A stretch of DNA of 63,852 nt, counting the filler, from Craspedostauros australis (lineage: Eukaryota), in NCBI GenBank assembly GCA_030167865.1. It is 22 parts of 22 records of this genome, joined end to end, with 100 filler letters (N's around TTAATTAATTAA, not from the genome) between each part and the next. Parts side by side here need not be neighbours in the genome. Positions count along the whole stretch, not along the records: positions 24,763 to 25,933 come from JALAGF010003261.1; 21 more parts are not named here. One strand, 5' to 3'. The notes under the pieces are model-generated. The model was not told the origin of the DNA. It did no database searches and saw only the letters and a list, made by a program, of their open reading frames with translations. Numbering within the stretch: the stretch's first letter is position 1; every line of letters starts with the position of its first letter. Both the position numbers and the translations under genes were made by a program. This document shows, piece after piece, positions 24,763 to 25,885 of this stretch.

Positions 24763-25186
24763 GATGGATGCTGATCGATGGCTACAGATCGATGGATGTG
24801 AATGCGGATGGATGCTGATCGATGGATGTGAATGCGAATGCGGATGGATGCTGATCAATGGATGTGAATGCAGATGCTGATCGATGGCTACAGATTGATG
24901 GATGCGAATGCAGATGGATGCTGATCAATGAATGCGGATGCGGAAGGATGCAGATCGATGGATGATGATTGATGGCTACAGATTGATGGCTACAGATCGA
25001 TGGTGATCGATGGATGCGGGTCGATGGATGCAGATCGATGGATGCGGATGGATGGATGGATGCGGATTGTTGGATGCTGATCGATGGATGGATGCGGATT
25101 GTTGGATGCTGATCGATGGATGTGAATGTGAATGGATGGATGCTGATCGTTGGATGCTGATCAATGGATGTGAATGCGAATGGATG
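24763..25186. repeat. Degenerate GATGGATGCTGATC / GGAT satellite, continuing at 25850-25880 on the far side of the inserted TRIM
   Basis: Directly visible low-complexity tandem array. Confidence 0.9.
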
Positions 25187-25849
25187 TATTAGAGCACTAT
25201 CGAAAAATCACGAGGGGAGAGCAAAAGCAAAGTACCATGCCGGGATTCGAACCCGGAACCTCAGTTAGAATTACTGGTGCTCTACNGTTGAGCTACAGGC
25301 GATGCGATTGCTGANCNGAACACAAGTGAAATTTATAGATAGTGGGGGCTACGGGAGTAACGTACTTTAGCACTATTCGATTTTGTGCTGATACTCCCCT
25401 ACGCTACGACCGTGGACCACCTGCTCAAGAGCACTATGACGGAAAGTTGTTATCTCCCGCGTCTCCCCATCTCGGGGCACTCTCATTGTTGGGTGGCTAA
25501 TACTGCCAGACGAAGTGGGAGTGCTGCCGTAGCAGACAAGTGTGAGACTGGGTCGAAATCCGGTGATCGCAACGCGCCCACGAAGGCGTGTTGTGCAAGG
25601 TNNNNNNNNNNNNNNNNNNNNNNNNNNNNNNNNNNNNNNNNNNNNNNNNNNNNNNNNNNNNNNNNNNNNNNNNNNNNNNNNNNNNNNNNNNNNNNNNNNN
25701 NNNNNNNNNNNNNNNNNNNNNNNNNNNNNNNNNNNNNNNNNNNGTTGAGCTACAGGCGATGCGATTGCTGATCCGAACACAAGTGAAATTTATAGATAGT
25801 GGGGGCTACGGGAGTAACGTACTTAGCACTATTCGATTTTGTGCTGATA
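25187..25849 (-). mobile_element. Non-autonomous miniature LTR retrotransposon (TRIM) with tRNA-derived LTRs
   Basis: Direct repeats 25287-25393 and 25744-25849 differ by one indel; the rest of the second LTR is in an N gap. The complete LTR spans 25187-25393 with TA...TA ends. PPT AGGGGAG (25394-25400) abuts it. GGATG lies on both flanks (25182-25186, 25850-25854). Confidence 0.8.
25233..25302 (-). pseudogene. tRNA-like sequence (A-box/B-box) inside the TRIM LTR; not a canonical tRNA
   Basis: TAGCTCAACNGTAGAGC D-arm/A-box, CAGT-AATTCTA-ACTG anticodon-like arm and a perfect T-arm CCGGG-TTCGAAT-CCCGG. The acceptor stem pairs poorly and U33 is absent. Confidence 0.85.
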
Positions 25850-25885
25850 GGATGGATGCTGATCGATGAATGTGGATGTGGATGT

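What the first reader, a model, noticed from the sequence alone, without database searches (positions are those of the whole stretch)
25182..25854. Miniature LTR retrotransposon whose LTRs carry a tRNA-derived Pol III-type cassette (Cassandra/Helenus-like TRIM in a probable diatom)
Seen: a 207-bp LTR (25187-25393) is repeated at 25744-25849 (visible part). It has non-canonical TA...TA ends (TATCAG...CTAATA), a PPT AGGGGAG directly abutting the 3' LTR, GGATG on both flanks and a non-coding internal region of about 250 bp. Inside the LTR, in sense orientation, is a 70-nt tRNA-like sequence with intact A- and B-boxes, a decayed acceptor stem and a non-canonical anticodon loop, with TATAAAT about 30 nt upstream. 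Known: Cassandra TRIMs carry 5S rRNA in their LTRs, and Helenus TRIMs with tRNA-like LTRs were described from fungi, plants and animals. Inference: this is a stramenopile instance, possibly of independent origin, mobilised by a resident copia. Caveats: the PBS is hidden in Ns, GGATG is common in the host satellite, and T4/T5 runs downstream of the tRNA part could terminate Pol III early.
Basis: partly seen in the sequence, partly recalled or inferred. Interest (0 to 1): 0.8.

Follow-up and report, generated by a model that had tools for sequence, protein, structure and literature searches.

The report
Diatom mini-retrotransposon with tRNA-like LTRs
A small, recently mobile, protein-less jumping element in a diatom carries a decayed tRNA gene in each end repeat and probably borrows its copying enzymes from the host's copia retrotransposons; this kind of element (Helenus) was described in 2024 in fungi, animals and one plant, so this is a new host lineage, not a new kind.

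Summary
Confirmed. A 663-bp TRIM reads on the minus strand (25849 to 25187): LTR, 250-bp internal region, LTR. The 142-N gap equals the missing 100+42 bases seen in complete copies. The genome holds at least 72 LTR starts. 37 of 47 whole unpaired LTRs and 5 of 5 two-LTR copies have exact 5-bp TSDs; one copy has identical LTRs. The hidden PBS matches the anticodon arm of host tRNA-Asn(GUU) and is shared with 63 LTR junctions of other families, two confirmed as copia. One locus joins this LTR to a copia interior. The host is a diatom. It meets the definition of Helenus (PMC10886601), whose tables list no stramenopile. This scan noted such diatom elements, and Asn-arm priming, before on other DNA. 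Added here: the tRNA part is followed, before the PBS, by a T4 placed like host tRNA terminators, and by eye most published Helenus LTRs show the same. A leaky Pol III terminator is my best mechanism (0.55); Pol II from the TATA box is the rival. Transcription is not shown.

The parts
25182..25186 (.). target site duplication, copy at the 3' LTR end (GGATG on +)
   Evidence: 5 of 5 two-LTR copies with both ends visible have exact 5-bp TSDs
25187..25393 (-). 3' LTR, 207 bp, TATCAG...CTAATA
   Evidence: 40 scored genome matches at 94-100% of 99 candidates
25203..25207 (-). T5 run in U5 (second terminator-like run)
   Evidence: runs in the last 50 nt are T4+T5 in 45 of 60 LTRs, T4+T4 in 7, T4+T6 in 4, T4 alone in 3, T5+T5 in 1
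25223..25226 (-). T4 run 6 nt after the tRNA-like unit; placed like a host tRNA-gene terminator
   Evidence: LTR positions 163-172 show no substitution in 60 LTRs
25232..25302 (-). 71-nt tRNA-derived cassette: D, anticodon and T stems pair, acceptor stem decayed, no U33
   Evidence: Rfam RF00005 33.1 bits at 25238-25297; not called by ARAGORN; nearest of 22 host tRNA sequences is Arg(TCT), 52 identities
25243..25253 (-). B box GGTTCGAATCC
   Evidence: sequence; alignment
25284..25295 (-). A box TAGCTCAACNGT
   Evidence: sequence; alignment
25331..25337 (-). TATAAAT, 35 nt upstream of tRNA nt 1
25394..25400 (-). polypurine tract AGGGGAG abutting the 3' LTR; GGGGAG also precedes resident copia LTRs
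25394..25601 (-). visible 208 bp of the 250-bp non-coding internal region
   Evidence: 11 genome matches; 250 bp in complete copies; fold z-score 0.54
25602..25743 (-). 142-N gap; by length it holds the last 100 nt of the 5' LTR and the first 42 nt of the internal region, with the 14-nt tRNA-Asn PBS at about 25643-25630 (inferred from other copies)
   Evidence: gap length; complete copies L002, L013, L051
25744..25849 (-). visible 106 bp of the 5' LTR
   Evidence: (D6, D8)
25850..25854 (.). target site duplication, copy at the 5' LTR end (GGATG on +)
24763..25186 (.). host GATG-rich satellite into which this copy inserted (resumes at 25850)

Best explanation
A non-autonomous LTR retrotransposon (TRIM) of the Helenus kind. 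Shown: two LTRs, a PBS, a PPT, 5-bp TSDs, many solo LTRs, recent movement. Inferred with high odds (about 0.9): its RNA is packaged and copied by resident copia elements; the 5' 40 nt of host tRNA-Asn(GUU) prime the minus strand on the 14-nt PBS, helped by a second pairing to the tRNA's 5' end; copia integrase makes the 5-bp TSD. Inferred with middling odds (about 0.55): the LTR is a captured tRNA-gene unit (upstream TATA, A and B boxes, T4). Pol III starts near tRNA nt 1 in the 5' LTR; most transcripts stop at the T4/T5 as 80-100-nt tRNA-like RNAs; a minority reads through, crosses the internal region and U3, and stops at the same run in the 3' LTR. That gives a transposition RNA of about 540-560 nt whose R region is the tRNA part. 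The cassette is a promoter, not a working tRNA and not the primer.
For: Anatomy, TSDs, copy number. Identical LTRs (0 of 206) in L182, 8 of 207 differences in L197. PBS 12-mer: 74 hits against 0 for the control; all 74 examined: 6 tRNA-Asn genes, 4 TRIM junctions, 1 chimera, 63 junctions of other LTR families. RVT_2 in two of those families (L151, open 1833-aa frame, E 1e-22; L233, E 1e-23). Pairing beyond the 14-nt core: 3 of 200 and 15 of 200 shuffles do as well for two TRIM copies; 5 or fewer of 200 for 7 of 9 loci of other families. L232 joins a TRIM LTR at the PBS to the L233-type copia interior, 88-98% alike up to the contig end. 30 of 32 nuclear tRNA genes have T>=4 starting within 12 nt of the gene end, 18 of them only T4, against 3.3% of background 16-mers. 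T>=4 elsewhere in the LTR in only 2 of 60 copies. By eye, 26 of 26 fungal and 22 of 24 animal Helenus LTRs have T>=4 after the tRNA part, but 0 of 24 and 2 of 24 internal portions have one. Read-through past T4 and even T5 is reported for human Pol III (PMC3141230, passages). Non-CpG change per site per copy: A box 0.008, T arm 0.008, T3/T4 0.000, whole LTR 0.027.
Against: No transcript evidence. The RNA must pass two runs (T4, then mostly T5) before the PBS, and T4 alone ends 18 of 32 host tRNA genes; in vitro, human T5 gave no read-through and T4 very little. 2 of 10 internal regions examined (7 of them partial) carry a T4, and lack of T4 in about 400 nt is not unusual by chance (my estimate, about 1 in 4). 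The conservation figures rest on related copies and a few subfamily sites; the decayed 3' acceptor strand is as conserved (0.010). A good TATA box sits where a Pol II promoter would. No single partner family is pinned down: LTR-end likeness is split between two families and marginal over 22 comparisons; the far end of the chimera was not found, so it may be a later DNA recombination or an assembly join. The second element L201 has its T4 inside the tRNA part and none after.
Confidence: 0.55

Rival explanations
1. Same TRIM and same copia partner, but the transposition RNA is made by Pol II from the TATA box in U3, reading through the T runs. The A/B boxes bind TFIIIC (as an insulator or anti-silencing aid) or yield only short side transcripts; the U5 T-run serves Pol II 3'-end formation or is a relic of the captured gene.
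For: TATAAAT 35 nt before tRNA nt 1, little changed across 60 LTRs; two terminator-grade runs precede the PBS; T4 appears to be a normal host terminator; ordinary LTRs use Pol II (established knowledge).
Against: Host tRNA genes are also AT-rich at -45 to -31 (0.69-0.76 against 0.46-0.61 nearer the gene), so the TATA fits a Pol III unit too. It does not explain why T4 is scarce in Helenus internal regions (by eye) or why these elements are short. Cassandra is reported to start and stop inside its small-RNA part (PMC10886601).
Confidence: 0.32
2. The tRNA-like part works as RNA structure: a site cut by RNase P or Z that sets the ends of the element RNA, or a tRNA mimic that helps packaging by Gag.
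For: D, anticodon and T stems still pair; retrozymes show that LTR-borne RNA processing can define a TRIM's RNA (named in PMC10886601).
Against: The acceptor stem, which these nucleases need (established knowledge), pairs at only 4 of 7 positions and does not form in the predicted fold; CpG decay hits the T stem freely; no compensatory change was seen among the 60 LTRs by inspection.
Confidence: 0.08
3. The LTR's tRNA-like RNA is the element's own primer.
For: A lead from earlier notes of this scan on other diatom TRIMs, unchecked.
Against: The cassette pairs with the PBS region only in scattered fashion (-20.3 kcal/mol) against -44.5 for the host tRNA-Asn half; the PBS is an exact 14-nt complement of host tRNA-Asn.
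Confidence: 0.02
4. Not an LTR element: a tRNA-derived SINE or pseudogene duplicated in tandem, or an assembly echo across the gap.
For: Most copies are single 206-207-bp units; this copy sits in a satellite and spans an N gap.
Against: Fixed ends, 5-bp TSDs, no tail, 5 two-LTR copies with their own TSDs, PBS and PPT; gap length fits exactly.
Confidence: 0.01

Closest known systems
Helenus (TRIMp3), fungal Asn-primed families such as Helenus-3_PGr (Kojima 2024, PMC10886601; whole main text read, supplement parts 1 and 7 of 11 read and the file searched)
   Same: Short non-coding two-LTR element; tRNA-derived A/B-box cassette near the LTR 3' end; not a working tRNA; 5-bp TSD; solo LTRs; PBS against the tRNA anticodon arm, here the same 12 letters as Helenus-3_PGr; T>=4 after the cassette; copia as inferred partner.
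   Different: Host is a diatom (no stramenopile in Table 1, 0 hits for three stramenopile terms in the supplement). LTRs start TA, like the resident copia families, where the listed Helenus LTRs nearly all start TG. PBS abuts the LTR. No likeness outside the PBS and boxes was seen by eye.
Cassandra TRIMs (PMC7215508, passages; PMC10886601)
   Same: TRIM with a small-RNA-derived Pol III promoter in each LTR.
   Different: 5S rRNA-derived, land plants, different PBS (TGGTATCAGAGC); Pol III transcription shown there, not here.
Ty5 and Drosophila copia half-tRNA priming (as cited in PMC10886601; original papers not read)
   Same: Priming from the anticodon arm by a copia-type RT.
   Different: Those use tRNA-iMet and are autonomous; here tRNA-Asn(GUU) and a non-coding element.
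Diatom CoDi copia elements (Maumus 2009, PMC2806351, passages)
   Same: Copia dominate this genome too; some CoDi families lack TG/CA ends.
   Different: That paper's main text has no hit for tRNA, TRIM or non-autonomous; whether the Asn-PBS families here are CoDi groups was not tested.
tRNA-derived SINEs (SINE2)
   Same: tRNA-derived internal Pol III promoter.
   Different: SINEs have a tail and variable-length TSDs; this has LTRs, PBS, PPT and fixed 5-bp TSDs.

Membership tests
TRIM | Two direct terminal repeats around a short non-coding internal region, under about 1 kb | tested here: met
   664 bp = 207+250+207 in gap-free copy L051; 663 bp here
TRIM | PBS after the 5' LTR and PPT before the 3' LTR | tested here: met
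   PBS in 4 TRIM junctions, complementary to host tRNA-Asn; PPT AGGGGAG
TRIM | Short fixed-length TSDs that differ between copies | tested here: met
   37 of 47 whole unpaired LTRs exact 5 bp, 3 with one mismatch, 7 none; 5 of 5 two-LTR copies
Helenus | tRNA-derived sequence inside the LTR (the paper's definition) | tested here: met
   RF00005 above gathering score
Helenus | A box (TRGCY...YGG) and B box (GGTTC) kept | tested here: met
   TAGCTCAACGG and GGTTCGAATCC in most copies
Helenus | Cassette unlikely to be a working tRNA and not complementary to its own PBS | tested here: met
   ARAGORN 0 genes; no U33, weak acceptor stem; weak scattered duplex with the PBS
Helenus (fungal type) | Anticodon-arm PBS shared with autonomous copia, 5-bp TSD | tested here: met
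Helenus | Common descent with a named Helenus family | not tested
   No alignment to the published sequences was run; the paper treats Helenus as probably of several origins
TRIMp3 | Element RNA made by Pol III from the LTR | not testable with these tools
   No run on record as RNA holds it; validated only for Cassandra according to PMC10886601
Cassandra / Ajax | 5S rRNA-derived sequence in the LTR | tested here: not met
   Rfam finds only tRNA in 24500-26500
Retrozyme | Hammerhead ribozyme in the LTR | tested here: not met
   No ribozyme family up to E 1 over the whole 3' LTR and the visible internal region; the 42 hidden internal bases were not scanned
SINE2 | 3' tail and variable-length TSD, no LTR/PBS/PPT | tested here: not met

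The most novel reading that the evidence does not exclude
Helenus-type TRIMs across fungi, animals and now diatoms converge on one design: a whole tRNA-gene unit with its terminator placed before the PBS, so that one leaky oligo-T both lets the genomic RNA through in the 5' LTR and ends it in the 3' LTR, while the many solo LTRs shed short tRNA-like RNAs. In this diatom the Pol III-type LTR has also been grafted onto a coding copia interior by template switching (L232), which would name the helper family and show co-packaging.
Probability: 0.3. Interest if true: 0.62.

Novelty: new member of a known kind. Interest (0 to 1): 0.4.

Why it matters
It extends tRNA-bearing TRIMs to stramenopiles. 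I found no such record in print: Helenus Table 1 and supplement and four library searches (listings only); the library lacks most subscription journals and Repbase was not searched. Pol III transcription has been validated only for Cassandra and no helper is proven for any such element (PMC10886601). This family is young (identical LTRs in one copy), short, has candidate helpers with an open frame, and sits in a diatom, so both open questions can be tested directly. The terminator before the PBS is a concrete puzzle that the Helenus main text does not take up (one hit for 'terminator', about Cassandra). Practically, 70 or more tRNA-like LTRs can inflate tRNA gene counts.

Tried and rejected
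Expression: no RNA holder listed. Contigs of run X1 (RNA only by guess) cover the copy from U5 through PBS, internal region and 3' LTR in several pieces, none spanning it; X2 gave none. Not used for or against. Donor tRNA: no exact donor; a pattern for canonical-loop tRNAs with the same D arm gave 2 nuclear Arg(TCG) genes and one organelle-type Thr; only 63 of 1301 tRNA candidates were scored and 22 distinct nuclear sequences of 9 amino acids compared, so Arg(TCT) is a lead only. Other tRNA-bearing TRIM families with the Asn PBS in this genome: B-box-plus-PBS pattern gave 4 hits, all this family. Metagenomes: 15 hits, 14 without any repeat (bacterial-type tRNA genes or chance), 1 real (L201); its host could not be told (atlas hits 0.76, unnamed). 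Window copia ORFs as helpers: no Asn PBS above chance and no matching PPT/LTR start; several ends lie in gaps. Homology of the internal region to any copia: none beyond 34 nt around the PBS among the loci held. Special fold of the internal region: z 0.54. Far end of the L232 chimera: 0 hits. Self-priming: rejected. Host from the DAO gene by atlas: uninformative. Earlier notes by sequence and by place: nothing. Papers checked by passage without a useful hit: 10.1101/2025.10.24.684338, PMC5445492 (no Asn PBS mentioned); PMC13570524 shows that chimeras and solo LTRs are common among plant TRIMs, which tempers the weight of L232.

Full report
Observation. The LTR at 25187-25393 recurs over the 106 visible bases at 25744-25849 with one 1-base indel. 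Rfam's tRNA model matches 25238-25297(-) at 33.1 bits, above the gathering score of 29; ARAGORN calls no tRNA gene in the window. The cassette is 71 nt, with A box, B box, paired D, anticodon and T stems, no U33 and a weak acceptor stem. TATAAAT begins 35 nt before its first base and a T4 lies 6 nt after its last.

It is a real, young TRIM family. The LTR gave 40 scored matches at 94-100% out of 99 candidates; an LTR-start pattern gave 72 exact hits against 0 for the control; the internal region gave 11 matches. Of 67 distinct LTR hits in the loci held, 60 were whole: 47 unpaired, 9 behind a PPT, 4 before a PBS. Of the 47, 37 have an exact 5-bp TSD (33 different sequences), 3 have one mismatch and 7 none; one of the 7 is an old 5' LTR with a decayed PBS. 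Sixteen further stretches gave 6 more exact TSDs, 1 without, 1 already counted; the rest were cut or truncated. All 5 two-LTR copies with both outer ends visible have exact 5-bp TSDs. The gap-free copy L051 is 664 bp: 207+250+207. The window's 142 Ns equal the 100 missing LTR bases plus 42 internal bases (for the gap; arithmetic). LTR pairs differ at 0 of 206 (L182) and 8 of 207 (L197) positions, so movement is recent. Two end types exist: 30 of 60 end AATA, 25 TTCA.

Host. A window protein (44424-45689) is 100% identical over 99% of its length to one labelled Craspedostauros australis, and the other named hits are diatoms.

Primer and helper. In complete copies the 5' LTR is followed directly by GATTAACAGTCGCA. 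The 12-mer has 74 hits against 0 for the control. All 74 were examined: 6 are the reverse strand of nuclear tRNA-Asn(GTT) genes, 4 are TRIM junctions, 1 is a chimera, 63 are LTR-end junctions of other families. So the PBS is a 14-nt complement of the Asn anticodon arm, and the primer would be the tRNA's first 40 nt. Pairing extends to the tRNA's 5' end: 3 of 200 and 15 of 200 shuffles did as well for two TRIM copies, and 5 or fewer of 200 for 7 of 9 loci from other families; 2 showed no extension. Two of these families carry copia-type RT (RVT_2): L151, with an open 1833-aa frame in two tandem units, and L233; two more frames gave only weak integrase hits and three gave none. Where their LTR starts could be seen they are TATCAG, TATTAG or TAATAG, and they end in CA or TA, several behind GGGGAG. 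The TA ends are thus a trait of this lineage. No one family is singled out by its termini. One locus, L232, has an older-type TRIM LTR joined at the PBS to the interior of the L233 family, 88-98% alike to the contig end. That fits template switching in a shared particle, but the far end was not found, and DNA recombination or an assembly join remain possible; chimeras are common among plant TRIMs (PMC13570524, passages). The window's own four RVT_2 frames show neither this PBS nor this LTR start.

How the RNA is made. This step is inferred. Among 32 nuclear tRNA genes, 30 have a T>=4 run starting within 12 nt of the gene end, 18 of them only T4; 1 has none and 1 runs into Ns; 3.3% of background 16-mers hold a T4. 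The LTR's T4 sits at +6 and its surrounding ten bases show no substitution in 60 LTRs; 57 of 60 have a second run, mostly T5; only 2 of 60 have a T4 elsewhere in the LTR. Host tRNA genes are AT-rich at -45 to -31, where the LTR has its TATA. The LTR therefore looks like a whole captured tRNA-gene unit, terminator included, and that terminator lies before the PBS. This is not peculiar to the diatom. Reading the Helenus sequence file by eye, 26 of 26 whole fungal LTRs in part 1 have a T4 just after the tRNA part, 0 of 24 internal portions have one, and 1 U3 does (one cut entry dropped). In part 7, 22 of 24 named animal LTRs have T4-T6 there, several with two runs; 2 of 24 internal portions and 2 U3 regions have a T4 (one unnamed leading entry, without T4, not counted). 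The paper's main text mentions terminators once, for Cassandra. Human Pol III reads through T4 and even T5 to some degree in cells, though hardly in vitro (PMC3141230, passages). My best reading is a leaky terminator: most transcripts stop as short tRNA-like RNAs, a minority runs on to the same run in the 3' LTR and is the transposition template. Against it: two runs must be passed, 2 of 10 internal regions examined carry a T4, the box conservation (0.008 against 0.027) rests on related copies, and Pol II from the TATA box explains the element without read-through. No run on record as RNA holds the element, so neither model is tested. Odds: Pol III with leaky stop 0.55, Pol II 0.32, RNA-structure role 0.08.

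A second element elsewhere. A scan of metagenome contigs for B box plus PBS gave 15 hits; 14 show no repeat. L201 shows a different element: an LTR of about 218 bp (TG...TA) with a tRNA-like unit (Rfam tRNA-clan match 33.7 bits, below that family's gathering score), the same 14-nt PBS, an 84-bp interior, the same AGGGGAG, and the start of a second LTR at the contig end. It shares nothing else with the window's element, its TSD cannot be tested, its host is unknown, and its only T4 lies inside the tRNA part.

Comparison. [quoted passage not shown] Every defining feature that could be tested is met, and the match to the fungal type is close: 5-bp TSD, anticodon-arm PBS, even the same 12 letters as Helenus-3_PGr. 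Table 1 lists fungi, animals and one lycophyte; three stramenopile terms have no hit in the supplement. Descent from a named family was not tested, and the paper itself favours several origins. It is not Cassandra, Ajax, a retrozyme or a SINE. Searches (listings) showed no diatom record; the library is incomplete and Repbase was not available. Earlier unchecked notes of this scan describe Helenus-type TRIMs in other diatom genomes and Asn-arm priming in diatom copia; I reached my reading before seeing them and do not count them as support.

Verdict. A genuine new member of a known kind, in a host lineage not in the published tables, with unusually complete anatomy: primer tRNA identified, helper clade narrowed, recent activity, and a sharp, testable puzzle about the terminator. 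Interest 0.4.

Noticed in passing
L232 (G000:C6717:1556-5053): TRIM LTR joined at the PBS to the coding interior of a copia family, itself inserted in another high-copy copia; far end not found.
   Followed up: partly
L201:1-410 (metagenome contig, minus strand): A second, unrelated TRIM-like element with a tRNA-like LTR, the same Asn PBS and the same PPT; host unknown.
   Followed up: partly
L151/L152 (G000:C4353): Two tandem 6.5-kb copia units sharing a 738-bp LTR, each with an open 1833-aa frame; LTR starts with the same 9 bases as the TRIM.
   Followed up: partly
63 loci (e.g. L047, L055, L044, L041, L140): At least eight LTR families in this genome share the tRNA-Asn anticodon-arm PBS; most show extra pairing to the tRNA's 5' end.
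   Followed up: partly
L049, L117, L121, L155: A further family with the Asn PBS and no long frame directly behind it; could be another non-autonomous element. No B box in the 260 nt upstream of the two loci checked (L117, L121).
   Followed up: no
60 TRIM LTRs: CpG sites vary about four times more than other sites (0.10 against 0.027), as expected if the copies are CG-methylated.
   Followed up: no
L110 (G000:C6680): An internally deleted copy: sequence from just behind the PBS is joined to the PPT; its TSD-like flank matches the 5' flank of an LTR start on another contig (L277).
   Followed up: no
L184, L223, L225, L232: Four older-type TRIM insertions lie in copies of the same high-copy copia element at three different positions.
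   Followed up: no
nuclear tRNA loci: 18 of 32 tRNA genes end in only T4, many with a second T run within 40 nt.
   Followed up: partly
window 206-2569, 11374-16354, 48922-53007, 58374-59657; 21003-24659: Four copia RT frames and one RVT_1 frame: the window is TE-dense. Also ankyrin-like 102-bp repeats at 17989-18372 and 19220-20137, and a hybrid histidine kinase frame at 55892-58036.
   Followed up: no
window gaps, e.g. 24664-24762, 25934-26033: Contigs are joined by 100-base N spacers holding TTAATTAATTAA; the 142-N gap in the element is of another kind and has the exact length of the missing bases.
   Followed up: yes
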